DNA from: Acidimicrobiales bacterium
GTDB lineage: Bacteria > Actinomycetota > Acidimicrobiia > Acidimicrobiales > VFJN01
Reading direction: 5' to 3'
Assembly (NCBI GenBank): GCA_035265325.1
Contig: DATFOS010000172.1
Coordinates: forward strand, 5,653 to 69,652
Length of the DNA stretch: 64,000 nt
Part shown: positions 48,216 through 64,000 of the stretch, in pieces
How positions within the stretch are numbered: the first letter of the stretch is position 1
Layout: each line of letters opens with the position of its first letter
The notes under the pieces: generated by a model
What the model saw: the letters and a program-made list of their open reading frames with translations, nothing else
What the model was told of the DNA's origin: nothing
The model's database searches: none
Made by a program: the position numbers and the translations under genes

Positions 48216-48229
48216 GGGACATGGTTCCC
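48216..48229. promoter_or_regulatory. weak distal DosR-type box
   Basis: GGGACATGGTTCCC matches 11 of 14 positions of the local consensus. Confidence 0.25.
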
Positions 48230-48329
48230 ACCTCTCGCGAGCGCGGCACCGAACCCGCCGGTACCGTGCATTCCGCCAGCGTTGATCGCCCCACGTGCGG
48301 CCCGGCAGGGTCGTTGCGACGAGCGAACC

Positions 48330-48343
48330 GGGACCAAGGTCCC
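48330..48343. promoter_or_regulatory. DosR/DevR-type box upstream of the GNAT-USP gene
   Basis: GGGACCAAGGTCCC matches the GGGAC-N4-GTCCC core of the DosR consensus. It lies 59 nt upstream of ATG 48403. Confidence 0.6.
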
Positions 48344-48402
48344 TGTCGCGGCCGCCGTGCCCGCCCCACGCTGGGGGCGATCGCGATGTAGGAGGTGCAA
48401 CG

Positions 48403-49761
48403 ATGCCGACGACGTTCGGGACGCCCGCCGGTTCCCGCCAACTCGAGGTGCGGCCGCTCGACGACGAGGACGTCGGGCAACTGGACGCCCTGTGCCAGCG
48501 CCAGTCGTCCGACAGCCTCCGGCGGCAGTTCTTCGACCCCGCGCCGCCGACGCGCGACCGCCTCGACCGCCTCACGGCGCATGACGACGGTCGCGGGGTT
48601 GCCATCGTCGCCCTCGCCGGCGGCACGCTCGTCGGTGCCGCCCGCTACGACCGCGTCGATGCCGGCGACAGCGCCGAAGCCTGGGTGTTCGTCGACGAGG
48701 CCGTCGCCGACCCGGAGGTCGACGTCCGGCTCCTGACCGAACTCGCCCGCATCGCCCGGGAGGCCGGTATCCGCCGCCTGCTCGTCGAGGTGCACCCGCT
48801 GGACCGCGAGCTGCTCGAGACGCTCGACGCCACCCCGCTCCACACCGAGCGGCACCTCCACTGCGGCATCGTCACGGTCACCGTCCACCTGGACCCGGCG
48901 GCGTCTCGCGCCCGCCCCCAGGGTGGGGACCCGGCGGCCCTGCTCTGTCGCAGCGTCCTGGTCCCCGTCGACTGTTCGCCGTTCGCCGAGAAGGCCGTCG
49001 CCGCCGGCGACTGGCTCGCCCGCCGGCTCGGCGCCGAGCTGCACGTCGCCACCGGCGTGCTCGCCCACGACCCCTGGTGGGACGACCGCTACCTGGCCCG
49101 CATCCGGTCCACCTACCGGCGGGCGCAGACCCACCTGTGGACGCACTCGGACATCGCGGGCGGCGTCGCCCGCCTCGCCGACGACATCGGCCCCACCGTG
49201 CTCTGCGCCGCCACCCACGGCCGCTCCCGGAGCGCGTCGGTCGTCGGCTCGACCTTCCTCGCCATGGCCCGGGCGACCGACGTCCCGGTCGTCGCCGTGG
49301 GCCAGGAGGCCCGCCCGCCCCAGGCAGCCGACCTCCCGATCGTGGCCTGCGTCGACGGCAGCCTCGCGTCGGAGTCCGTCCTGCCCGGGGCCGCCACCTG
49401 GGCCCGCCGCCTCGGCGTGCCGCTGGACCTCGTCACGGTGGCCGACGCGGACGGCGGCCCGGACGCCGAGCCGGTCCGCTTCGGCGGCGCCCGGCGGGAC
49501 GCGGCGGAGTACCTGGAGGAGCTGCTCGCCGGCCCCGAGCTCGCCGGGCTGACCGCCAAGTCCGAGGTGCTCTCCGACCGTGTGGCGCCGCACCACGCCA
49601 TCGCCGACCGGCTCGCCCGCCGGCCGGCCACACTCGTCGCCCTGGCATCGCGCGCCCGCACGGGCCTGGGGCGCATGCTCGTCGGCAGCGAGGCGGCCCG
49701 CATCATCCAGGCCAGCCCCGTGCCCGTCCTGGTGCACCGGGTCGTCGGCGGCGGCGCCTGA
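48403..49761 (+). CDS. Pat-type GNAT domain fused to two universal stress protein (USP) domains
   Basis: N-terminal LEVRPLDDEDV...LRRQFF...VGAARYDRV...AEAWVFV (Pat-like GNAT), then two USP-like units (VLVPVDCSP...VPVVAVG and IVACVDGS...VPVLVHR). GGAGGTG RBS. DosR-type box 59 nt upstream. Confidence 0.75.
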   Translation: MPTTFGTPAGSRQLEVRPLDDEDVGQLDALCQRQSSDSLRRQFFDPAPPTRDRLDRLTAHDDGRGVAIVALAGGTLVGAARYDRVDAGDSAEAWVFVDEAVADPEVDVRLLTELARIAREAGIRRLLVEVHPLDRELLETLDATPLHTERHLHCGIVTVTVHLDPAASRARPQGGDPAALLCRSVLVPVDCSPFAEKAVAAGDWLARRLGAELHVATGVLAHDPWWDDRYLARIRSTYRRAQTHLWTHSDIAGGVARLADDIGPTVLCAATHGRSRSASVVGSTFLAMARATDVPVVAVGQEARPPQAADLPIVACVDGSLASESVLPGAATWARRLGVPLDLVTVADADGGPDAEPVRFGGARRDAAEYLEELLAGPELAGLTAKSEVLSDRVAPHHAIADRLARRPATLVALASRARTGLGRMLVGSEAARIIQASPVPVLVHRVVGGGA

Positions 49762-54065: not shown

Positions 54066-54719
54066 GTGACCATCCGTGTGTTCCTGCTCGACGACCACGA
54101 GCTCGTCCGAGCCGGCGTGCGTGACCTGATCGAGACCGACGGCGACATCGAGGTCGTCGGCGAGGCCGGCACCGTGGACGAGGCCATCCGCCGCGTGCCC
54201 GCCACGAGGCCCGACGTCGCCATCCTCGACGTGCGGCTGCCCGACGGCAACGGCGTCGAGGCGTGCCGCGACATCCGCTCGTCGCACCCCGAGGTGCGGT
54301 GCCTGATGCTCACGTCGTACTCCGACGACGACGCCCTGTTCGACGCCATCATGGCCGGCGCCTCCGGCTACCTCCTCAAGCAGGTGCGCTCGAATGACCT
54401 GATCGAGAGCGTCCGCCGGGTCGCCGCCGGCCAGTCCCTGCTCGACCCCGCCCTCACCGCCACGGTGCTGGAACGCATGCGGAACCCCCCGCAGCAGGAC
54501 GAGCAGCTCAAGCGCCTCACCGAGCAGGAGCGCCGCATCCTCGACCTGCTTGCCGAGGGCCTGACCAACCGCCAGATCGGCGAGCGGCTGTTCCTCGCCG
54601 AGAAGACCGTCAAGAACTACGTGTCCAACCTGCTGCTCAAGCTGGGCATGCACCGGCGCACCGAGGCGGCCGTCTACGCCGCCCGCATCGCCGAGCGCCG
54701 CGACCGCCACGCCACCTGA
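54066..54719 (+). CDS. devR: NarL/LuxR-family response regulator, DevR/DosR ortholog
   Basis: VFLLDDHELVR, PDVAILDVRLPDGNG (phospho-Asp), LTEQERRILDLLAEGLTNRQIGERLFLAEKTVKNYVSNLLLKLG. About 60 percent identical by eye to recalled DosR. Confidence 0.8.
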   Translation: MTIRVFLLDDHELVRAGVRDLIETDGDIEVVGEAGTVDEAIRRVPATRPDVAILDVRLPDGNGVEACRDIRSSHPEVRCLMLTSYSDDDALFDAIMAGASGYLLKQVRSNDLIESVRRVAAGQSLLDPALTATVLERMRNPPQQDEQLKRLTEQERRILDLLAEGLTNRQIGERLFLAEKTVKNYVSNLLLKLGMHRRTEAAVYAARIAERRDRHAT

Positions 54720-54833: not shown

Positions 54834-55286
54834 TCATCCGGACCACTCCATGTGGCCGTCGGCTCGCTGCGGGACCGGCTCGCCGGCCCGGGTGCGCCGG
54901 CCGGAGACGACGTGGGTGGTGATGCCGACGAAGCGCCCGTCCGTCCCGGACGCCCACGCGGCCAGGCGATCCCGATCGTGGGCCGGGACGTCGCTCGCCG
55001 GCACGTCGACGGCGAGGCCGGTGACCACGACGCTCCAGCCGCTGCGGTCGTGACGGTCGATGTCGTCGGCCTCGAACGCTACGACCGTGTCGCGGGTGGC
55101 GAGGTCGAGAAGCGTGCCGCGGGCGGTGTGGAGGACGATCCGGTCGCCCACGACGGCGAAGTCGACCGGAACGACGAGCGGCAACGCCCCGGACGACAGG
55201 CCGATGCGCCCGACGTGGGCGCAACGGAGCAGGTCCAGGCACTGCGTGCGGTCGAGGACCTCCAGGCCGTTGCGGTCGATCTCCAT
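54834..55286 (-). CDS. PPOX family FMN/F420-binding protein
   Basis: QCLDLLRCAHVGRIGLSSGALPLVVPVDFAV, SGWSVVVTGLA. DosR-type box 37 nt upstream. Confidence 0.75.
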   Translation of the reverse strand: MEIDRNGLEVLDRTQCLDLLRCAHVGRIGLSSGALPLVVPVDFAVVGDRIVLHTARGTLLDLATRDTVVAFEADDIDRHDRSGWSVVVTGLAVDVPASDVPAHDRDRLAAWASGTDGRFVGITTHVVSGRRTRAGEPVPQRADGHMEWSG

Positions 55287-55323: not shown

Positions 55324-55337
55324 GGGCCGAAGGTCCC
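55324..55337. promoter_or_regulatory. DosR/DevR-type box upstream of the PPOX gene 54834..55286
   Basis: The minus strand reads GGGACCTTCGGCCC, 37 nt upstream of the start. The 14-mer is identical to the box at 62149. Confidence 0.5.
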
Positions 55338-57362: not shown

Positions 57363-58145
57363 TCAGCCGGGGGCCGGGACGACGAGGACGGGGTGCGGCG
57401 CGTGCCGGACCACGGCGCGTGCGACGGCGCCGAGCGGCGGGTGGCCCGGGCCGGCCCGGTGCGCCGGCCCGCCACCGCCGACCACGACCAGGGGGGCGTC
57501 CATCTCGGCCGCTGCCACGAGGATGCCCTCGGCCGCGTCGTCGCCCTCCATCAGGTCCCAGTGGGCGTCGATGCCGTCCGCCTGCAGGGCCGCCCAGGCC
57601 GCAGCCGCCGGCCGGCCCGCCGCCCGGTCCTCGGCGGCGTCGACGACCTGCAGGACGCGCACCTTCACGTCGAGGGCGGCGGCCCAGGCACAGGCTGCCG
57701 CGGCAACGCCGGCGGACGACGGCGAGTCGTCGACGCAGGCCAGGAGGCTGGCGACGTGGGGTCGGGCGCGGCGCACCTCGGGCCCGACGAGCACGATCGG
57801 CCCGTCGCGGCGGAGCAGCTCGTTGGCGACGCTGTGGAAGACCAGGTCGGCGGCCGGGCCGCGCACATGGGTGGCGACGCAGAGTGTGGCGTCCCGGGCC
57901 GTCGCCTCGGCGAGGATGCCGGCGGCGACGTGGTCGTCGGCGGTGACGTGGATGGCGTCGAGTCGCACGCCCGCGTGGCGGGCGTGCCACAGGAGCTCCT
58001 CGGCGTCGTCGTCGGCCGAGGCGGCGCCGGAGACGACGACCCCCTCGAGGCGGGCACCGGTGGCGTCCGCGAGGGAGCGGCCGACCGGCAGGGCCCGGTC
58101 GGCCTCCTCGCCGAAGTCCAGCGGGACGAGGATGGTGCGGGTCAT
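57363..58145 (-). CDS. tandem universal stress protein
   Basis: TILVPLDFGEEADRAL and LLACVDDSPSS units, each ending in PxVLVxP-type strands. ATG 58145 forms ATGA with the CBS stop. GTG 58154 is an alternative. Confidence 0.75.
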   Translation of the reverse strand: MTRTILVPLDFGEEADRALPVGRSLADATGARLEGVVVSGAASADDDAEELLWHARHAGVRLDAIHVTADDHVAAGILAEATARDATLCVATHVRGPAADLVFHSVANELLRRDGPIVLVGPEVRRARPHVASLLACVDDSPSSAGVAAAACAWAAALDVKVRVLQVVDAAEDRAAGRPAAAAWAALQADGIDAHWDLMEGDDAAEGILVAAAEMDAPLVVVGGGGPAHRAGPGHPPLGAVARAVVRHAPHPVLVVPAPG

Positions 58146-58591
58146 CGTGGCCACCTCACGCGCTCTCCGAAGCCGCCGACCAGGAGGAGCACGCCTTCCG
58201 GAGGGAAGGCCTGGAGCAGGACGGCGAGGAGGTCCCGGATCGAGACGACGCCCACCGCCCGGCCGCCCTGGACCACCACCAGGTGGCGGACGCCCTCGTC
58301 CAGCATGCGGGCGGCGGCGGCCACGACCGTGGCGTCGCGGTCGACCGTGGCCGGGCGGGGCGTGGCGAGCTCGGCCGTCAGCGTGTCGGGGGCCCGCCCG
58401 TCGGCGACCGCCGCCGTCACGTCCCGCTCGGTGAGGATGGTCACGAGTGCTCCGGGCGTCCCGACCACCAGGGCCGACACGCCCTCCTGCCGCATGGTCC
58501 GGGCGGCGATGCGGAGCGACGCCTCGGGCTCGATCGTGACGAGCGGCCGGAACGGCAGGTCCCGCACCAGCGGCACGTCGGTGGCGGTCAT
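58142..58591 (-). CDS. CBS-pair domain protein (Hrp1/Rv2626c-like)
   Basis: Two CBS repeats (GVSALVV...TERDV and GVRHLVVV...SIRDLL). ATG 58591 is preferred because GAGGAGGA lies 7-8 nt upstream. Confidence 0.75.
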   Translation of the reverse strand: MTATDVPLVRDLPFRPLVTIEPEASLRIAARTMRQEGVSALVVGTPGALVTILTERDVTAAVADGRAPDTLTAELATPRPATVDRDATVVAAAARMLDEGVRHLVVVQGGRAVGVVSIRDLLAVLLQAFPPEGVLLLVGGFGERVRWPR

Positions 58592-58628: not shown

Positions 58629-60116
58629 TCACCCGGCCGGCTCGACCACGACCGCGGTGACCATGCCGAACATGCCGGTCTCCCGCTCGACGTGGTTCAG
58701 GATGTGGCAGTGCCAGACCCAGGTGCCGGGCCTGTCCAGGTGGACGAGCACCGAGTACCGCTCCCCCGGCGCCACGTTGACCGTGTCGGCCACGTAGGGG
58801 TTGTCCAGGGGGTACCCGTCCTTGGCCACGACCACCTGGTCGAACTGGTGGAGGTGCATGGGATGGATCTGGCTGCCCTCGTTCATGTAGTGGACGAGGA
58901 CCCAGTCGCCCTCGTCGGCGACGATCGGCGTGGTGGCCGGGAAGCTCTTGCCGTTGAGCGACAAGCCGATGACCCCGCTGTCGTTGAGCACGAGCGGCAT
59001 CTCCTGGCTCACGCGCAGGTCGGCGGGGATGGCCTCGTCGCCGATGGTCTGGCCGCGGTGCAGGTCCATCCGGCCCACGAGCAGGGTGCCGAGCAGCCCG
59101 TTCGGGACCTGCATCTGGCCGTGGTGGTGGGCGTGGTACATCGCCACCGCGGCCTCGTCGGCGGTGAAATCGTAGGTGAACGACTCACCGGGCTCGATCG
59201 ACGGCTGGGTCAGCGGGGCGACGCCGTCCATGTCGTTCTCCACGTTGATGCCGTGGAGGTGCAGGTCGGTCGCCATGGGGAGGTCGTTCTGCAGCTCGAT
59301 GCGCACCCGGTCGCCGACGTCCACCGCGATCTGGGGGCCGGGGACCATGCCGTTGTACGTCCAGGCGTCGACCGTGGTGCCCGGCTCGACCTCCCACGGC
59401 GTGATCTCGGCAGTGAGCTCGAAAACCTTGGTGCCGTCGGCCTCGACCCGGGGCTCGAGGACCTGGTTGCCGACGCCCTCGGTCTCGGCCGGGTAGGCCA
59501 GGATCGACTCGTCCATCGCCGCGCTCATCTCGGCGTACTGCTCCTCCGTCATCGTGTCGCCGCCGGCGGCCGACGAGCCGCTGTCGGACATGGCCGACAT
59601 GTCGTGGCCGGCGGAGGACATCGAGGCGCCGTCGCCGCCGGCTGCGCCGCCGATCGTGAGCGTGCCGGTCATGCCCGAGTCGGCGTGGCCGGCGATCGTG
59701 CACAGCACGTCGTAGTCACCGGGTGCCAGGCCCGACAGGTCGAGCGTCTCGCTCTCGCCGCCGGCCAGGTCGGCCGTGACGACGTCGGTGCCTTCGACCG
59801 AGAAGTTGTGGGCGGCGGTCCCGCCGTTCGTCACGGTCAGGCTGCCGCCCTCCGGCACGGTGATGGCGGCCGGGCTGATGGCGAACTCGCTCAGCGACAC
59901 GGTCACGGGGGTGCCGGCGCCGCCGGCCGTCCCGCCGTCGTCGTCGCCGCCCAGCAGCGCCACGACCGTGGCGATGAGCAGGGCCAGCACGGCGAGGACC
60001 ACGGCGAACCCGGCGAGCCCGAGGTTGCCCTCGTTCTCCGGCGCCGTCCGGGGGGAGGGCCGGGGCGGGTCACCGCTGCCATCGCCTGCCGTGACGGGGG
60101 GCTCGATCGTCTGCAC
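58629..60116 (-). CDS. membrane-anchored cupredoxin fused to a two-domain multicopper oxidase via a Met/Ser/Gly-rich linker
   Basis: TM helix. Type-1 Cu site HNF...CTIAGHADSGM. Linker MSSAGHDMSAMSDSG. MCO motifs HLHG, YHAHHH, HPMHLH, WHCHILNHVERETGM. GAGGAG RBS before GTG 60116. Confidence 0.75.
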   Translation of the reverse strand: MQTIEPPVTAGDGSGDPPRPSPRTAPENEGNLGLAGFAVVLAVLALLIATVVALLGGDDDGGTAGGAGTPVTVSLSEFAISPAAITVPEGGSLTVTNGGTAAHNFSVEGTDVVTADLAGGESETLDLSGLAPGDYDVLCTIAGHADSGMTGTLTIGGAAGGDGASMSSAGHDMSAMSDSGSSAAGGDTMTEEQYAEMSAAMDESILAYPAETEGVGNQVLEPRVEADGTKVFELTAEITPWEVEPGTTVDAWTYNGMVPGPQIAVDVGDRVRIELQNDLPMATDLHLHGINVENDMDGVAPLTQPSIEPGESFTYDFTADEAAVAMYHAHHHGQMQVPNGLLGTLLVGRMDLHRGQTIGDEAIPADLRVSQEMPLVLNDSGVIGLSLNGKSFPATTPIVADEGDWVLVHYMNEGSQIHPMHLHQFDQVVVAKDGYPLDNPYVADTVNVAPGERYSVLVHLDRPGTWVWHCHILNHVERETGMFGMVTAVVVEPAG

Positions 60117-60222: not shown

Positions 60223-60236
60223 GGGACCTTGGTCCC
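60223..60236. promoter_or_regulatory. DosR/DevR-type box upstream of the multicopper oxidase operon
   Basis: GGGACCTTGGTCCC is the exact reverse complement of the box at 48330, so it has the same orientation relative to its gene. Confidence 0.6.
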
Positions 60237-60243
60237 GGCGCGA

Positions 60244-61422
60244 TCAGGGACGGACGGCCTCGGCCGCGGCCTGGTGGGCAACGCAGAAGCGGGCGGCCGG
60301 GACGGCCACGAGGCGCTCGTCCGGGATGACGACGTTGCAGGCCTCGCAGCGGCCGTAGGCGCCGCGGGCCAGGCGGAGCAGGGCGTCGCGCACGGCGGCG
60401 ACCTCGCCGTCCACCTCGTGGAGCAGCGAGAGGTCCCGCGTGCGCTCGAACGTCTCCGTGCCCAGGTCGGCCGGGTGCTGGTCGGCGCCGCTCAGCTCCC
60501 CGACGTCCTGGCACTCGGTCATGGCGTCGAGGCCCTCGCCCCACAGTGTCCGCTGCACCGCCCGGAGGCGGTGCAACTCCGCCACCAGGCGCCGGCGGGC
60601 GATCGACGGTTCGGCGAGCGACGGCGGGGCGTCGACCGGCACCACGACGCCGTGGCCGCCGTCCCAGCGCCGGTACACGACCATCGCCCGATCGGTCGTG
60701 GGGTCCACCACGACGACGAAGGGCTCGCCGCTCAGCTCCAGGCGTTCGGCGGCCGCCGCCGGGTCGAGGACGGGCGGCGGCGGCTCGATCACGACCTCCT
60801 CGTCGACGCACCGCACGGCCTCGGCGGCCGGCGCCCGGCCGTCGTGGCGGACGAGGCCCAGTCGGCCGTCGCCGCGGTGGTGCACGACGGCGTCGGCGCC
60901 GGTCCCGAGCTCGCGGAACAGCAGGAACTCGCCGTCGAGCATCTCGAGGTCGAAGACGGCCTCGTCCAGCGTGGACTCCGCCGGCGACAGGGTCCGGCGG
61001 CGCACGACGGGCCGCTCGGGCGGCTCTCGCTCGGCCCGGGCGGCGGCGTGGGCCGGCGCCCCCCACGACCGCGCCGGCCGGCGCCCGCTCCGGTGCCGCT
61101 CGCCGAGACGGACCAGCTGGTCGTGGAGCCGTGCCTGGGCGACATCGACGGCCGCCAGGGCGGTGGCGCCCAGGGCGTGCGCCCGGACGACCCGGCCGTC
61201 GACGTCCATGGTCGCCCGCGCCGTCCACCGGTGGTCGTCCGACGGGTCGTCCGACCGGGCCACGCGCAGCCCGACGTGGATGACGGGCGCGGGGGCGACC
61301 CGGACGAGCCGCCGCAACTTGGTCGTGGCGTACGCCTCCACGATGGACGGCGTCCCGACGCCGAGTCGAAGCTCGACGGGCGGCGGCGGTGGCGGCCGGT
61401 CGCGGCGTGAGGTGATCGTCAT
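60244..61422 (-). CDS. Rv0079-like ribosome-hibernation-factor homolog with C-terminal TraR/DksA-type zinc finger
   Basis: N-terminal HPF-like fold and two S30AE-C-like repeats (FLLFRELGTGADAVVHHRGDGRLGLV and FVVVVDPTTDRAMVVYRRWDGGHGVV), then GAYGRCEACNVVIPDERLVAVPAARFCVAH. AGGAGGG RBS before ATG 61422. Confidence 0.7.
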   Translation of the reverse strand: MTITSRRDRPPPPPPVELRLGVGTPSIVEAYATTKLRRLVRVAPAPVIHVGLRVARSDDPSDDHRWTARATMDVDGRVVRAHALGATALAAVDVAQARLHDQLVRLGERHRSGRRPARSWGAPAHAAARAEREPPERPVVRRRTLSPAESTLDEAVFDLEMLDGEFLLFRELGTGADAVVHHRGDGRLGLVRHDGRAPAAEAVRCVDEEVVIEPPPPVLDPAAAAERLELSGEPFVVVVDPTTDRAMVVYRRWDGGHGVVVPVDAPPSLAEPSIARRRLVAELHRLRAVQRTLWGEGLDAMTECQDVGELSGADQHPADLGTETFERTRDLSLLHEVDGEVAAVRDALLRLARGAYGRCEACNVVIPDERLVAVPAARFCVAHQAAAEAVRP

Positions 61423-61481: not shown

Positions 61482-62090
61482 TCAGGCCACGCACGAGATC
61501 GAGATGGACTCGTCGTCGACGCCGGCGGCGCGGAAGGCTTGGTGGATCCGGGCGGCGATGGCGCCGTCCGACGTCGACGCCGCCGCAGGGCGGTGCACCA
61601 CGACCCGCAGGTCCCGCCCGCGCCGGTCGACCGCGGCCCGCACGTCGCCGCCCGCCCCCTGCAGGCCGTCGTCGACGACGCGCCGGGTGACGATGGCGGC
61701 GGTGGCGGCCAGGTCGTTGAGGTGCCGGCGGACCGCGTCCTCGCAGGCGTCCACGACGTCGCCGTCGCTCACGGCCACGGTGGTCCAGCGGGCGAAGGGG
61801 TTGGGCCAGCCGGCGCCGTGGACGACGAGGGGCACGTGCCGGCGGACGGCGCACGTCGTGCCCTGCTCATGGACCACCGGGTGCGGCTCGTCCTCGGACC
61901 GGACGTCGACCGCGACGTCGACGCCGCCGGGCAGGTCGAGCGGGCAGGCATCCCGGTCGAGCCCGACGCAGGGGCGGGACGGCCCGGCGTCGCGGTCGAA
62001 GCACCGCACGACCTCGTGGCCGGCGGCTCCCAGGCGGGCGGCCGTGGCGTCGGCGAGGCCCGGCGTCGTCTCGATGCAGAGTATGCGCAT
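61482..62090 (-). CDS. hypothetical Cys-rich protein (202 aa)
   Basis: High GC3 in frame and ordinary composition. Begins MRILCIETTPGLADATAARLGAAGHEVVRCF. Seven Cys residues. No family recognised. Confidence 0.55.
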   Translation of the reverse strand: MRILCIETTPGLADATAARLGAAGHEVVRCFDRDAGPSRPCVGLDRDACPLDLPGGVDVAVDVRSEDEPHPVVHEQGTTCAVRRHVPLVVHGAGWPNPFARWTTVAVSDGDVVDACEDAVRRHLNDLAATAAIVTRRVVDDGLQGAGGDVRAAVDRRGRDLRVVVHRPAAASTSDGAIAARIHQAFRAAGVDDESISISCVA

Positions 62091-62148
62091 GCCGGCACGG
62101 TGGGCCACCGATGGGGTGCAGCGGCAGGGCACAGCTTCCGCGCCCGCC

Positions 62149-62162
62149 GGGACCTTCGGCCC
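62149..62162. promoter_or_regulatory. DosR/DevR-type box in the divergent region between 61482..62090 and the zinc-finger-USP gene
   Basis: GGGACCTTCGGCCC lies 35 nt upstream of ATG 62198. Confidence 0.5.
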
Positions 62163-62197
62163 TGCCGCGCCGGGCCCTTCGGAGGGAGGATCGACGC

Positions 62198-63184
62198 ATG
62201 GCACACGACACCGTCCACCAGTGCCCGTACTGCGAGCTCCGCTTCGCGTACCGGCCGGAGCTGGCCGATCACGTCGCCGCCGACCACCCCCGGCCGGTCG
62301 ACGATGACCTGCCGGCCGCCACCGCACCCGCCGGGACCATCACCGTCCCGCTCGACCCCGCCCACCCGCCGACCGTCGCCCTGCCGGTCGCCATCGCTCT
62401 GGCCCGCCCGACGGGCCTGGCCGTCGAGATCGTGGCCGCCCCCGCCGTCGGCCTGCCGACCGCGCCCTACCTCGCCGCGGCCCGCCGGCGGGTCGTCGAG
62501 GCCGGCGTCGTCGCCGTCCGAGCCGTCGAGCTGATGGGCGACGCCGCCGCGGCGATCGTCGCCCATGCCGCCACCGGCCGCACCCGGCTCCTCTGCCTGT
62601 CCACCCACGCCTGGGGCGTGGTCGGCAAGGGGGCGCTGGGCAGCGTCAGCGACCGGATCGTCCGCAGCTCTCCCGTCCCGGTCGTCCTCGTCGGCCCCGC
62701 CGTCCTGCACCCCGGGCAACCGATCCGTCGGGTGCTGGCCGGCGTGGACGGCTCGACGCTGTCCCGCCAGGCGGTCGACGTCGCCGCGGCCTTGGCCGGC
62801 CGGTTGGGCGCCCGGTTCGACCTCGCCTACGTCGTCCGGCCCAACGACCCCTACGACGACGCGCCCGACGCCGCCCTGCTCTGGGGCGAGCAGCACCTGC
62901 AGCCCCCGTGGGACTACGAGGTCGTCCACGGCGACGACCCGGCCCGCACGCTGGCCGACTTGGCGGGCCAGGCCGGCGACACGCTGGTGGCGGTCGGCAC
63001 GCACGGCCGCACCGGCCTGCCCCTCGCCGTCCTCGGCAGCGTGGCCGTCGGCCTCGCCGACCAGTGCACCGGGCCGGTCCTCGTCCTGCCGGCGACGGCG
63101 GCCCCCGGCGCCGGCACCACCGGCACCACCGACATGGCCACAGCCACCCCACGGCGCGCCGCTCCCGTGGAGGGAGAGCAGTGA
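62198..63184 (+). CDS. C2H2 zinc finger fused to tandem USP domains
   Basis: CPYCELRFAYRPELADHVAADH fits C-x2-C-x3-F-x5-L-x2-H-x4-H. It is followed by two USP-like units. GGAGGGAGGA RBS. DosR-type box 35 nt upstream. Confidence 0.7.
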   Translation: MAHDTVHQCPYCELRFAYRPELADHVAADHPRPVDDDLPAATAPAGTITVPLDPAHPPTVALPVAIALARPTGLAVEIVAAPAVGLPTAPYLAAARRRVVEAGVVAVRAVELMGDAAAAIVAHAATGRTRLLCLSTHAWGVVGKGALGSVSDRIVRSSPVPVVLVGPAVLHPGQPIRRVLAGVDGSTLSRQAVDVAAALAGRLGARFDLAYVVRPNDPYDDAPDAALLWGEQHLQPPWDYEVVHGDDPARTLADLAGQAGDTLVAVGTHGRTGLPLAVLGSVAVGLADQCTGPVLVLPATAAPGAGTTGTTDMATATPRRAAPVEGEQ

Positions 63185-64000
63185 TGGCCCCGGCCGGCCG
63201 GCACCAGGTCGTCGTCGGGGTGGACGGGTCGCCGCACGCCCGCCTCGCCATGCGATGGGCCTCGCGCTTCGCCCTCCTCCTCGACGCCGACGTCACCGCG
63301 GTCCACGGCACCGGCCTCCTCGACCACGTGGACGGGCGACTCGTCCCCGCCCACGCCCACATCGACGAGATCCGTCGGGCCCTCGAGGAGGAGTGGTGCG
63401 GCCGCCTGGACCGCACGCACCTCCCGCACCGCGTCGAGGTCGTCGAGCGGCCGGCCGTCGACGCCCTGCTGGCCGCCGCCCACGAGGGGCCCACCGATCT
63501 GGTCGTCGTCGGCACCCGAGGGCGCGGCATCCCCCGCGCCCAGGCCCTCGGCAGCACGGCACTGCAACTGCTCCGGCAGGCGACGGTGCCCGTGCTCGTC
63601 GTCCCGGGGCCCTCCGGCGACCGCTCGGTCGAGCTGCGCCGGCTCGTGATCGGGGTCGACGGGTCCGTGGCGGCCCAGGCCGCCCTCCTCTGGGCCTCGG
63701 GCCTGGCCTGCCTCACCGGCGCCCGCTGCGAGGTGGTGGCCGTCGCCGAGGACGACCCGGTCTTCCCGCTGGGCACGGCCGCCACCGTGACCGCCGCCGG
63801 CGAGGAGGACGCCCCCGACCGCCTGCGGGCGATTGCGGAGCAGGCCTGCGAGTCCCTGCGTGACCTGGGAGTGACCTGCGAGGTGACGGTCCGCCGCGGC
63901 ACGGCCGCCGACGCCCTGCTCGGCGTGGCCCGCGACCGGCACGCCGACCTCGTCGTTGTGGGCAGCTCCGGCGAGGGCTCGGCCGGCAACCCGCTGCTCG
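63184..64000 (+). CDS. tandem universal stress protein (3' end cut by window edge)
   Basis: My own translation from ATG 63184 (TGATG overlap) reads MAPAGRHQVVVGVDGSPHARLAMRWA...DLVVVGTRGRG...VPVLVVP, then a second unit LVIGVDGSVAAQAAL...DLVVVGSSGEG. No stop before base 64000. Confidence 0.8.
   Translation, partial: MAPAGRHQVVVGVDGSPHARLAMRWASRFALLLDADVTAVHGTGLLDHVDGRLVPAHAHIDEIRRALEEEWCGRLDRTHLPHRVEVVERPAVDALLAAAHEGPTDLVVVGTRGRGIPRAQALGSTALQLLRQATVPVLVVPGPSGDRSVELRRLVIGVDGSVAAQAALLWASGLACLTGARCEVVAVAEDDPVFPLGTAATVTAAGEEDAPDRLRAIAEQACESLRDLGVTCEVTVRRGTAADALLGVARDRHADLVVVGSSGEGSAGNPLL

What the first reader, a model, noticed from the sequence alone, without database searches (positions are those of the whole stretch)
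62198..63184. Textbook C2H2 zinc finger at the N-terminus of a bacterial tandem-USP protein
Residues 9-30, CPYCELRFAYRPELADHVAADH, fit the eukaryotic-type consensus C-x2-C-x3-F-x5-L-x2-H-x4-H at every conserved position. This differs from the Ros/MucR bacterial variant. The finger is followed by a Pro/Ala linker and two USP-like domains. The gene has a strong RBS and a DosR-type box 35 nt upstream. It overlaps (TGATG) a second tandem-USP gene. A nucleic-acid-binding finger on a nucleotide-sensing stress module suggests a direct link between USP signalling and DNA or RNA.
Basis: partly seen in the sequence, partly recalled or inferred. Interest (0 to 1): 0.65.

Follow-up and report, generated by a model that had tools for sequence, protein, structure and literature searches.

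The report
Zinc-finger microprotein fused to stress protein
A soil actinobacterium (Acidimicrobiales) has fused a eukaryote-style C2H2 zinc finger, which normally exists in this bacterial class as a free 40-50-residue protein, to the front of a hypoxia/dormancy-regulated tandem universal stress protein. The finger is real and conserved, but it looks more like a docking module than a DNA reader.

Summary
Gene 62198-63184 (+) encodes a 328-aa protein. Residues 9-30 fit C-x2-C-x3-F-x5-L-x2-H-x4-H exactly, and two USP domains follow.

- **Finger is genuine.** All 11 first-search orthologs (42-96% identity) keep the ligands. The finger is the most conserved segment (68% vs 45-50% for the USP domains). 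AlphaFold predicts a beta-beta-alpha fold, and a family profile hits solved classical fingers (ZFY, E 2e-7).
The finger belongs to a large family of stand-alone 35-75-aa proteins, found here only in Acidimicrobiia. The same module is also fused N-terminally to AhpD-like, flavodoxin-like and unknown domains.
- **Regulation.** The gene lies in a DosR/DevR-type dormancy island containing a DevR ortholog (E 1.6e-77). A DosR/OsdR-type palindrome sits at -49..-36 from the ATG, and a -10-like hexamer at -12..-7. Seventeen fused and free finger genes share this spacing, which implies a leaderless mRNA. The "strong RBS" is then probably promoter sequence.
- **Function.** Nucleic-acid binding is not supported: the finger and linker are acidic (net -5) and lack basic flanks. 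I favour a zinc-stabilised docking module that tethers a dormancy USP to a conserved partner. This is inferred, not shown.

The case is a new domain architecture and an uncharacterised bacterial C2H2 family.

The parts
62149..62162 (.). DosR/DevR (OsdR)-type palindromic box GGGACCTTCGGCCC, at -49..-36 from the start codon
   Evidence: 5 matches to GGGACCWWGGTCCC at up to 2 mismatches in the window against 1.72 expected. The same position relative to the start codon recurs in 17 finger genes. It resembles the OsdR consensus AGGGCCGATCGGCCCT (PMC5069765). A DevR ortholog lies in the window.
62186..62191 (+). -10-like hexamer GAGGAT at -12..-7, implying transcription starts at the A of the ATG (leaderless mRNA). 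It overlaps the Shine-Dalgarno-like run GGAGGGAGG at 62181-62189.
   Evidence: ANNNT sits at -11..-7 in 14 of 17 aligned finger-gene upstream regions, against 2% at other offsets. No transcription start site data exist, so this is an inference.
62198..63184 (+). Coding sequence of the 328-aa zinc-finger / tandem-USP protein
62216..62287 (+). Classical C2H2 zinc finger, residues 7-30 (ligands C9, C12, H25, H30; core F16, L22)
   Evidence: Invariant in the orthologs. AlphaFold predicts beta-beta-alpha with pLDDT 90-93. All top-50 Foldseek hits are classical C2H2 fingers. The family profile hits the ZFY finger at E 2.1e-7.
62288..62335 (+). Acidic Pro/Ala-rich linker, residues 31-46, with a conserved DDD-(L/I/V)-P motif
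   Evidence: pLDDT is about 62. D37 and P39 are nearly invariant. The same DDD tail occurs in the free microproteins.
62336..62707 (+). USP domain 1, residues 47-170, with a degenerate nucleotide motif (STHA-x9-GS)
62723..63097 (+). USP domain 2, residues 176-300. An intact ATP-type motif G-x2-G-x9-G-S lies at residues 267-281 (nt 62996-63040).
   Evidence: The fold matches the tandem USPs TTHA0350 (3ab8, E 3.8e-14) and Rv2623 (3cis, E 7.5e-13).
63184..64000 (+). Second tandem-USP gene, overlapping by one base (TGATG) and cut by the window end. On a contig whose match to this gene is 100% identical, it is 314 aa and a third USP gene follows.
   Evidence: L088.
61482..62090 (-). Divergent 202-aa protein of unknown family that shares the intergenic region. 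A homolog sits directly downstream of the zinc-finger USP gene in two other loci.
   Evidence: No Pfam hit. About 57 homologs were found; the named ones are Acidimicrobiales, or Actinomycetes in one case. It neighbours the gene in L068 and L007.
54066..54719 (+). NarL/LuxR-type response regulator, ortholog of M. tuberculosis DevR/DosR. It is the likely regulator acting on the box.
   Evidence: Best solved-structure hit is 3c3w DevR, E 1.6e-77 (263 bits). The next hit, VraR, scores 155 bits. Pfam gives Response_reg plus GerE.

Best explanation
**What it is (shown by sequence, structure prediction and comparison).** The gene encodes a tandem universal stress protein of the Rv2623/TTHA0350 type. 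Its N-terminus carries a complete copy of a C2H2 zinc-finger microprotein found here only in Acidimicrobiia: a classical beta-beta-alpha finger plus an acidic DDD/Pro linker. Only the second USP domain keeps the ATP-type G-x2-G-x9-G-S motif.

**How it is expressed (inferred from conserved geometry).**
- The gene belongs to a DosR/DevR-type dormancy regulon.
- The DevR ortholog encoded 8 kb upstream would bind the palindrome at -49..-36.
- A -10-like hexamer at -12..-7 would then start transcription at the A of the ATG, giving a leaderless mRNA.
- This mRNA would also cover the two USP genes that follow.

**How the finger works (inferred, my preferred mechanism).** The finger is a zinc-stabilised docking module, not a DNA reader. 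The free microproteins are little more than this finger and its acidic tail, and nearly all of their surface residues are conserved. That pattern points to one conserved partner, most likely a protein or a basic surface of a large complex. Fusing the module to a USP tethers a stress effector to that partner when DosR is active. The same would apply where the module is fused to an AhpD-like or a flavodoxin-like domain. The ATP-binding second USP domain would supply the nucleotide-dependent regulatory function known for Rv2623.
For: **Finger is real, classical and under selection**
- Ligands and core residues are invariant in the orthologs.
- The finger is the most conserved segment: 68% mean pairwise identity, against 50% and 45% for the USP domains and 37% for the linker.
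- AlphaFold gives beta-beta-alpha with pLDDT 90-93.
- The top 50 PDB fold hits are all classical fingers, with rmsd 0.3-2 A.
- The family profile hits ZFY at 2.1e-7, ZNF524 at 1.2e-5 and CTCF at 3.8e-5.

**Microprotein family**
- The finger profile gave 421 hits. The best 120 are all 33-76 aa.
- 136 loci were found in one-genome-per-species bacterial and archaeal assemblies. Every title that names a class or lower taxon is Acidimicrobiia, including cultured Desertimonas flava with two copies.

**Modular N-terminal use**
- Fusions to tandem USP occur in about 15 distinct orthologs in all: P0002-P0011 and loci L067/L068 and L089-L096. Some of these overlap.
- Other fusions are to a CMD/AhpD-like domain (L031), a flavodoxin domain (L102), and an unknown 130-aa domain in 7 loci.

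**Link to dormancy islands without fusion**
- The closest free relatives (P0049, P0071) sit beside tandem USP, Rv2632c-like, WS/DGAT and CBS genes.
- Several free copies lie within 5 kb of DosR, USP and Pyridox_ox_2 genes.

**Regulation**
- A DevR ortholog is present.
- Boxes lie upstream of finger genes at 0.25 per kb, against 0.04 per kb elsewhere.
- Box and -10 hexamer sit at fixed distances from the start codon in 17 genes.
- Where mapped in M. tuberculosis, the proximal Dev box lies 33-34 nt from the transcription start. That matches this geometry (PMC3177182).
- Leaderless ATG/GTG initiation is common in mycobacteria (PMC4633059).

**USP part**
-.
- Rv2623 is DosR-induced, binds ATP and acts through a protein partner (PMC2682197, PMC5549992).

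**Against DNA reading**
- The charge data.
Against: - There is no direct evidence for zinc binding, for any partner, or for DosR control. All of it is sequence inference.
- R15 and R19 are near-invariant basic residues and could contact phosphate. About 17% of fingers in multi-finger proteins are equally acidic, so charge alone cannot exclude RNA or DNA binding.
- The AlphaFold output gives no inter-domain error map. I cannot say whether the finger docks onto its own USP domains instead of an external partner.
- The window's box has two mismatches to the palindrome.
- I did not look for a DosS/DosT-type kinase in the window.
- A few fused orthologs lack a recognisable box: L096, and L067 where the gene follows another USP.
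- The 17 upstream regions are evolutionarily related, so the p-value for the -10 hexamer overstates independence.
- The window has a good Shine-Dalgarno-like run, so a leadered transcript from a more distal promoter is not excluded.
Confidence: 0.5

Rival explanations
1. The finger binds nucleic acid. It would recognise a DNA or RNA target, placing a nucleotide-sensing USP on the chromosome, on an mRNA or on rRNA.
For: - The fold and profile are those of classical fingers, and most solved examples of those bind DNA.
- R15 aligns with the basic residue before the core Phe that often touches phosphate. R19 is near-invariant.
- H-x4-H fingers also occur in RNA-binding proteins (my own knowledge).
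- Small single-C2H2 proteins appear as chains of archaeal ribosome structures (9qf4/9qf5 Bk, 6skg Bo). Their matches are not significant, with E 0.036-0.15.
- A ribosome hibernation factor gene lies next door.
Against: - There is a single finger with no basic flank. Ros and single-finger eukaryotic binders need basic flanks (PMC9779718).
- Net charge is -5 over residues 1-44, and the family mean from 8 residues before the first Cys to the C-terminus is -6.1.
- The helix positions that normally read bases are Y, P, E and D here. Positions -1 and +2 vary among the fused orthologs.
- The fusion partners (USP, AhpD-like, flavodoxin) are not DNA-associated domains.
Confidence: 0.2
2. The finger is a redox-, NO- or zinc-sensitive switch. 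Oxidation or nitrosylation of C9/C12, or zinc limitation, would release zinc and unfold the finger. That would change the activity or oligomeric state of the attached USP or redox domain during the stresses that trigger DosR.
For: - The gene sits in a DosR-type regulon, which in M. tuberculosis responds to hypoxia, NO and CO (PMC2914252, PMC5069765).
- The other fusion partners are redox proteins: a CMD/AhpD-like domain and a flavodoxin domain.
- The finger is linked by a flexible tether.
Against: - Nearly every surface residue of the finger is conserved across hundreds of free copies. That fits partner recognition better than a simple metal switch.
- Cys2His2 sites are generally less redox-labile than Cys4 or Cys3His sites (my own knowledge).
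- Many free copies lie in a housekeeping-like synteny with no stress genes nearby.
Confidence: 0.15
3. The finger acts within the protein. It would dock on the first, ATP-motif-less USP domain as a lid or dimerisation element, with no external target.
For: - The first USP domain has lost the G-x2-G motif and could have gained another interface.
- The linker length and the DDD-x-P motif are conserved.
Against: - The same finger exists free and on unrelated domains, so a USP-specific intramolecular role cannot be its ancestral function.
- Finger-less orthologs of the same tandem USP exist (P0012, P0013).
Confidence: 0.1
4. The motif is a chance match or an annotation artefact, with the true start downstream of the finger.
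For: The Pfam C2H2 hits are below the gathering thresholds.
Against: - The motif is absent from 200 shuffles.
- The coding signal starts at 62198.
- All finger-bearing orthologs conserve the finger better than the rest of the protein.
- The promoter geometry is fixed to this start codon.
Confidence: 0.01

Closest known systems
Classical (eukaryote-type) C2H2 zinc fingers, e.g. ZFY even fingers, CTCF and ZNF524 fingers (Pfam zf-C2H2 PF00096, zf-C2H2_4 PF13894)
   Same: - Spacing is C-x2-C-x12-H-x4-H.
- The Phe/Leu core is present.
- The predicted fold is beta-beta-alpha, with rmsd 0.3-0.9 A to ZNF524 and ZFY fingers.
- The family profile hits them significantly.
   Different: - It is bacterial and a single copy, always N-terminal or free.
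- It is acidic, has no TGEKP-type linker and no basic flank.
- Almost all surface residues are conserved, rather than a variable recognition helix.
- Individual members fall below the Pfam gathering scores.
Ros/MucR prokaryotic zinc-finger family
   Same: It is a bacterial Cys2His2 zinc site with a beta-hairpin followed by a helix.
   Different: [quoted passage not shown] It occurs mainly in alpha-proteobacteria (PMC9779718).
- This finger has the 12-residue spacer and the minimal beta-beta-alpha fold of about 25 residues, and it is acidic.
M. tuberculosis Rv2623 and T. thermophilus TTHA0350 (tandem-type universal stress proteins)
   Same: - The two-USP-domain fold matches (Foldseek E 1e-13 to 1e-14).
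- An ATP-type motif is present.
- Like Rv2623, it appears to be under DosR-type control in a dormancy gene cluster (PMC2682197, PMC2914252).
   Different: - It carries an N-terminal zinc finger and an acidic linker.
- The first USP domain lacks the G-x2-G motif.
- Sequence identity to these proteins is only 22-28%.
One-domain zinc-finger microproteins of Haloferax volcanii (C(P)XCG proteins)
   Same: They are very small (under 70 aa) prokaryotic proteins that consist of little more than one zinc-binding domain. Some are linked to stress adaptation (PMC6562870, PMC11241148).
   Different: Those are archaeal, mostly Cys4 zinc-ribbon or knuckle types with C(P)XCG motifs. They are not classical Cys2His2 beta-beta-alpha fingers, and no sequence relationship was seen here.
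DevR/DosR and OsdR regulons of Mycobacterium and Streptomyces
   Same: - A DevR ortholog is present.
- The gene cluster contains USPs, Pyridox_ox_2 proteins, a CBS protein, a hibernation factor and a lactate dehydrogenase.
- A GGGnCC-n2-GGnCCC palindrome lies upstream of the genes (PMC5069765).
   Different: - The organism is an Acidimicrobiales bacterium.
- The box consensus is GGGACCwwGGTCCC / GGGCCGAACGGCCC.
- A zinc-finger microprotein, free or fused, is a member of the regulon. This has not been described for Mycobacterium or Streptomyces as far as my searches show.

Membership tests
Classical C2H2 zinc finger (Pfam clan of zf-C2H2) | Ligand spacing C-x2-4-C-x12-H-x3-5-H with a conserved aromatic and a Leu in the core | tested here: met
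   C9-x2-C12-x12-H25-x4-H30, with F16 and L22. All are invariant in the fused orthologs, and the ligands and F16 are invariant in 132 short family members.
Classical C2H2 zinc finger (Pfam clan of zf-C2H2) | Score above the curated Pfam gathering threshold | tested here: not met
   zf-C2H2_4 scores 20.1 bits against 27, and zf-C2H2 scores 18.6 against 25.2, for residues 1-47. A few free family members do carry precomputed PF13894 or PF00096 hits.
Classical C2H2 zinc finger (Pfam clan of zf-C2H2) | Statistically significant sequence similarity to fingers of solved structure | tested here: met
   The family profile against PDB sequences gives ZFY 2.1e-7, ZNF524 1.2e-5 and CTCF 3.8e-5. Multi-finger proteins top the search of 1.84 billion proteins.
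Classical C2H2 zinc finger (Pfam clan of zf-C2H2) | Beta-beta-alpha fold | tested here: met
   This rests on a predicted model only. Strands lie at residues 7-8 and 15-16, and a helix at 19-29, with pLDDT 90-93. All top 50 Foldseek PDB hits are classical fingers, but E is only 0.05-0.7 because the domain is tiny.
Classical C2H2 zinc finger (Pfam clan of zf-C2H2) | Binds one Zn(II) tetrahedrally | not testable with these tools
   This needs metal analysis of purified protein.
Ros/MucR prokaryotic zinc finger | [quoted passage not shown] | tested here: not met
   The spacer is 12 residues, the predicted domain is a minimal beta-beta-alpha, and the flanks are acidic. Family features are taken from PMC9779718.
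Universal stress protein family (PF00582), tandem type | Two USP domains above the Pfam threshold with the fold of tandem USPs | tested here: met
   Usp scores 98.2 bits against 24, with two stretches. Foldseek hits 3ab8 at 3.8e-14 and 3cis (Rv2623) at 7.5e-13.
Universal stress protein family (PF00582), tandem type | ATP-binding motif G-x2-G-x9-G-(S/T) | tested here: inconclusive
   The motif is present in domain 2 (GTHGRTGLPLAVLGS, residues 267-281). It is degenerate in domain 1 (STHAWGVVGKGALGS). Actual nucleotide binding was not tested.
DosR/DevR (OsdR) regulon member | Palindromic Dev-box-like site at activator distance upstream, with a DevR ortholog in the genome | tested here: met
   The box lies at -49..-36. 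The DevR ortholog scores E 1.6e-77. The same box and spacing occur in orthologs and free paralogs. The geometry matches mapped M. tuberculosis promoters.
DosR/DevR (OsdR) regulon member | Induction by hypoxia, NO or CO that depends on the regulator | not testable with these tools
   This needs expression data from a cultured relative.
Leaderless actinobacterial gene | A -10 hexamer (ANNNT) ending about 6 nt before an ATG/GTG that is the transcription start | tested here: met
   GAGGAT lies at -12..-7. ANNNT is at -11..-7 in 14 of 17 related genes, against 2% background. The criterion is taken from PMC4633059. The transcription start itself is not mapped.

The most novel reading that the evidence does not exclude
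The C2H2 microproteins found here only in Acidimicrobiia are a previously unrecognised bacterial adaptor family. They would bind one conserved cellular machine, for example the ribosome, RNA polymerase or a nucleoid protein. A DosR-controlled subset, free or fused to USP, AhpD-like or flavodoxin domains, would recruit stress effectors to that machine during dormancy. This would be the first functional classical beta-beta-alpha C2H2 finger system native to bacteria, and independent of Ros/MucR.
Probability: 0.25. Interest if true: 0.75.

Novelty: new variant of a known kind. Interest (0 to 1): 0.55.

Why it matters
**For zinc-finger biology.** Reviews of prokaryotic zinc fingers centre on Ros/MucR, whose fold differs from the eukaryotic finger. 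This is a well-conserved, class-wide bacterial family with the minimal eukaryote-type fold and spacing. It is used as a free microprotein and as a portable N-terminal module. That bears on the origin and functional range of C2H2 fingers.

**For USP biology.** How USPs find their targets is largely unknown. A USP with a built-in docking domain whose free paralogs can serve as bait offers a direct experimental route to a USP partner.

**For dormancy regulation.** It extends the DosR/OsdR dormancy regulon, with a precise leaderless promoter geometry, to Acidimicrobiia. This is an abundant but little-studied soil and water lineage.

Tried and rejected
1. **NCBIfam** on the protein and on residues 1-47 gave only a weak UspE hit and nothing for the finger.
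2. **Split-gene hypothesis.** I asked whether finger-less orthologs (P0012, P0013) have a separate finger gene next door. The one locus available, L006, has none on its 8-kb contig.
3. **General USP linkage of the free microproteins.** This was rejected for the largest subtype (acidic DDD tail). That subtype sits in a conserved MaoC / short-chain dehydrogenase | finger | VanW / FAD-oxidoreductase synteny. It has no dormancy markers within 5 kb.
4. **E. coli-type promoter and terminator scan** of 61900-62400 found nothing, as expected for 74% GC DNA.
5. **The AlphaFold-database fold library** was not available. I therefore could not look for UniProt entries with the same architecture.
6. **The search of 1.84 billion representative proteins** was dominated by multi-finger proteins. 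Its top 150 listed no single-stretch hit longer than 80 aa, so it did not help to list further bacterial architectures.
7. **Literature searches** for C2H2 with USP/Actinobacteria, C2H2 with Acidimicrobiia, and classical C2H2 bacterial small proteins found no description of this family.
8. **Second Dev box.** I considered a second box at 62172-62185 (GGGCCCTTCGGAGG). I did not claim it, because its 23-bp spacing and its sequence are not conserved in the orthologs.
9. **Archaeal ribosome-bound C2H2 proteins** (9qf4 Bk, 6skg Bo) match only at E 0.04-0.15. I treat them as an analogy, not as homologs.
Full report
**1. The observation**

The window is 74% G+C. The ORF at 62198-63184 (+) is a real gene.
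- The third-codon-position GC signal moves into its frame at about 62200.
- A composition-based gene caller chooses exactly these coordinates.
- NCBI annotates the identical 328-aa product, HKH05963.1, as "universal stress protein [Acidimicrobiales bacterium]".

Residues 9-30, CPYCELRFAYRPELADHVAADH, fit C-x2-C-x3-F-x5-L-x2-H-x4-H at every position. The strict motif occurs once in all six frames of the window and never in 200 trinucleotide shuffles.

Pfam finds two USP stretches (E 8e-28). The C2H2 hits are all below threshold: for residues 1-47, zf-C2H2_4 gives 20.1 bits against 27 and zf-C2H2 gives 18.6 against 25.2. NCBIfam has nothing for the finger.

The stop codon overlaps the ATG of a second tandem-USP gene, as TGATG at 63182-63186.

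**2. Is the finger real?**

A search of 5.8 billion proteins gave 45 relatives. The eleven closest (42-96% identity) all begin 6-8 residues before the first Cys. All of them keep C9, C12, L14, R15, F16, E21, L22, H25 and H30.

Among these orthologs the finger is the best conserved part of the protein:

| Segment | Mean pairwise identity |
|---|---|
| Finger (7-31) | 68% |
| USP domain 1 | 50% |
| USP domain 2 | 45% |
| Linker | 37% |

- AlphaFold on the full protein (mean pLDDT 83.7) and on the finger alone predicts two short strands (7-8, 15-16) and a helix (19-29), with pLDDT 90-93.
- The top 50 Foldseek hits in the PDB are all classical C2H2 fingers. Examples are ZNF524 (0.3 A over 25 columns) and ZFY (0.9 A over 28). 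E-values are weak because the domain is tiny.
- A profile of the family hits solved fingers significantly by sequence: ZFY 2.1e-7, ZNF524 1.2e-5, CTCF 3.8e-5.
- In a search of 1.84 billion representative proteins, multi-finger proteins score highest.
- The 12-residue Cys-His spacer and the minimal fold separate it from Ros/MucR. [quoted passage not shown]

**3.

Searching with the finger alone found 421 proteins. The best 120 are all 33-76 residues long. Several are named "C2H2-type zinc finger protein" by NCBI's pipeline.

A scan of one genome per bacterial and archaeal species found 136 loci. Every title that names a class or lower taxon is Acidimicrobiia: Acidimicrobiales, Ilumatobacteraceae, Acidimicrobiaceae, and cultured Desertimonas flava with two copies. 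The scan used a family-specific peptide pattern, so "found only in Acidimicrobiia" applies to this family as defined by that pattern.

Of the 80 loci returned, about 73 encode free proteins of 38-50 residues, in several tail subtypes. The window's N-terminus is therefore a copy of a free microprotein, including its acidic "DDD-x-P" tail.

The module is portable and always N-terminal. Fusion partners include:
- tandem USPs, about 15 distinct orthologs in all;
- a CMD/AhpD-like domain (L031);
- a flavodoxin domain (L102);
- an unknown domain of about 130 residues, in seven loci.

Finger-less orthologs of the same tandem USP also exist (P0012, P0013).

**4. Genomic setting**

The gene lies in a dormancy-type island, which contains:
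- a response regulator at 54066-54719, whose best solved relative by far is M. tuberculosis DevR/DosR (E 1.6e-77; the next hit is 108 bits lower);
- two Pyridox_ox_2 proteins;
- an acetyl-CoA hydrolase/transferase;
- a CBS-pair protein;
- a multicopper oxidase;
- a ribosome hibernation factor fused to a DksA/TraR zinc finger;
- a lactate dehydrogenase;
- a GNAT-USP fusion;
- a further tandem USP at 57363-58154.

A contig whose match to this gene is 100% identical shows two more USP genes after the zinc-finger USP gene.

Orthologs sit in similar islands, with a GAF-HisKA_3 kinase, HSP20, Rv2632c-like, WS/DGAT and CBS genes.

The free fingers closest to the fused type (P0049, P0071) also lie next to tandem USP genes in such islands. 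So do several free copies in reference genomes (L055, L059, L069, L075, L083).

The largest free subtype is different. It has a housekeeping-like synteny of MaoC / short-chain dehydrogenase | finger | VanW / FAD-oxidoreductase, with no dormancy markers.

**5. Regulation**

The palindrome GGGACCwwGGTCCC occurs five times in the window at up to two mismatches, against 1.7 expected. Exact copies lie at 48330 and 60223.
- It resembles the Streptomyces OsdR consensus AGGGCCGATCGGCCCT. That consensus is reported to conform to the M. tuberculosis DevR site (PMC5069765).
- Upstream of finger genes in reference genomes the box is six-fold enriched, at 0.25 against 0.04 per kb.

I aligned 17 fused and free finger genes on their start codons. 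Their N-termini differ in length.
- The box falls at -49..-36, or one base further upstream.
- A hexamer of the form GAnGAT falls at -12..-7.
- ANNNT occupies -11..-7 in 14 of 17 genes, against 2% at other offsets.

A -10 element ending six bases before an ATG/GTG is the signature of a leaderless gene in mycobacteria. [quoted passage not shown]

Extending the box to the 18-bp Dev-box size puts its proximal edge 33-34 nt from the ATG. That equals the distance from the transcription start mapped at M. tuberculosis DevR promoters (PMC3177182, Table 1).

I therefore infer a DosR-activated, leaderless transcript. In the window the "strong RBS" GGAGGGAGG (62181-62189) overlaps the -10 hexamer GAGGAT (62186-62191). 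It is probably not used as a ribosome-binding site. This is inference: no transcription start data exist, and the 17 sequences are related.

**6. The USP body**

The model matches the tandem USPs TTHA0350 and Rv2623 (Foldseek E 1e-13 to 1e-14). Only the second domain has the ATP-type motif G-x2-G-x9-G-S, at residues 267-281. The first domain has STHA in place of G-x2-G.

Rv2623 is DosR-induced, binds ATP and acts through a protein partner, the FHA domain of Rv1747 (PMC2682197, PMC5549992).

**7. How the finger most likely works**

The case against base-reading:
- Residues 1-44 have net charge -5.
- In 132 free members, the finger core averages -2.4. Counted from 8 residues before the first Cys to the C-terminus, the proteins average -6.1.
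- The 950 fingers of the multi-finger proteins found by the same profile average +1.4. Only 17% are at -2 or below.
- There is one finger, with no basic flank and no TGEKP-type linker.
- The canonical base-contact positions are Y18, P20, E21 and D24. Positions 18 and 20 vary among the fused orthologs.

The case for partner recognition:
- In the free proteins almost every surface residue is conserved: H7, Q8, P10, E13, R15, R19, N20, E21, D24, D/E29 and P31.
- That pattern suits a small protein that fits one conserved partner.
- The finger's fusion to three unrelated stress or redox domains suits an adaptor role.

I therefore favour a zinc-stabilised docking module that tethers a DosR-induced, ATP-binding USP to the partner recognised by the free microproteins. 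My confidence in this overall account is about 0.5. The identity of the parts is secure; the mechanism is not.

The rivals are nucleic-acid (possibly ribosomal RNA) binding at 0.2, a redox, NO or zinc switch at 0.15, and an intramolecular lid on USP domain 1 at 0.1. A chance motif or a wrong start is effectively excluded.

**8. Novelty**

The databases hold these sequences, named "universal stress protein", "hypothetical protein" or "C2H2-type zinc finger protein". I found no paper describing the family, the architecture or a zinc finger in a DosR-type regulon.

This is a new domain architecture of a known protein kind. It also reveals an uncharacterised, class-wide bacterial family of classical C2H2 fingers. 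The finding is of moderate to good interest. It would matter most if the free microproteins prove to be adaptors for a central cellular machine.

Noticed in passing
window 60244-61341 (-): A ribosome hibernation factor (Ribosomal_S30AE plus S30AE_C) carries a C-terminal DksA/TraR-type C4 zinc finger in one 365-aa ORF. In the ortholog island L004 a separate 51-aa DksA/TraR finger gene occurs instead. This looks like an unusual fusion in the same dormancy island.
   Followed up: partly
window 61482-62090 (-): A 202-aa protein with no Pfam family is divergently transcribed from the zinc-finger USP gene. A homolog lies 69 nt downstream of the zinc-finger USP gene in L068, and a homolog also follows it in L007. 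About 57 homologs were found; the named ones are Acidimicrobiales, or Actinomycetes in one case. It may be a functional partner.
   Followed up: partly
window 48216-48343 and 48295-49761 (+): Two DosR-type boxes, one exact (GGGACCAAGGTCCC at 48330), lie in front of a gene that encodes a GNAT acetyltransferase fused to USP domains. This gene appears to have a leader with a Shine-Dalgarno sequence, unlike the finger genes.
   Followed up: partly
window 60223-60236 and 58629-60116 (-): An exact DosR-type palindrome, GGGACCTTGGTCCC, lies between the hibernation-factor gene and a multicopper oxidase with an N-terminal cupredoxin domain. In L059 a close homolog of this oxidase (E 1e-103) lies 287 nt upstream of a free finger gene.
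   Followed up: no
window 55324-55337 and 54834-55286 (-): A DosR-type box sits at -51..-38 from the ATG of a Pyridox_ox_2 gene. A -10-like CACGCT follows, shifted by one base from the finger-gene geometry, so this transcript may be nearly leaderless.
   Followed up: no
loci L001-L003, L008-L030 and others: The commonest free finger subtype (acidic DDD tail) has a strongly conserved synteny in about 30 species: MaoC dehydratase (-), short-chain dehydrogenase (-), finger (+), VanW / PG_binding_4 (+), FAD-dependent oxidoreductase (+), with NucS nearby. Its function is unknown.
   Followed up: partly
loci L122-L133 (metagenome contigs): A distinct subfamily of about 165-aa proteins was found in seven loci. 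Each has the N-terminal finger (HQCPKCELRFALKTELDDHCWHDHPEFRHEYP) and a conserved C-terminal domain of about 130 aa with no Pfam match.
   Followed up: partly
loci L072, L087: These are 102-aa finger proteins with a conserved C-terminal extension (…PRTW..A….FEALLRKY.G.YQ.AVDA…MSNPM) of unknown nature.
   Followed up: no
PDB 9qf4/9qf5 chain Bk, 6skg chain Bo: Small (47-65 aa) single-C2H2 proteins are chains in archaeal 70S ribosome structures. They match the family profile only weakly (E 0.036-0.15) and the model at rmsd 0.6 A over 24 columns. I take this as an analogy only.
   Followed up: no
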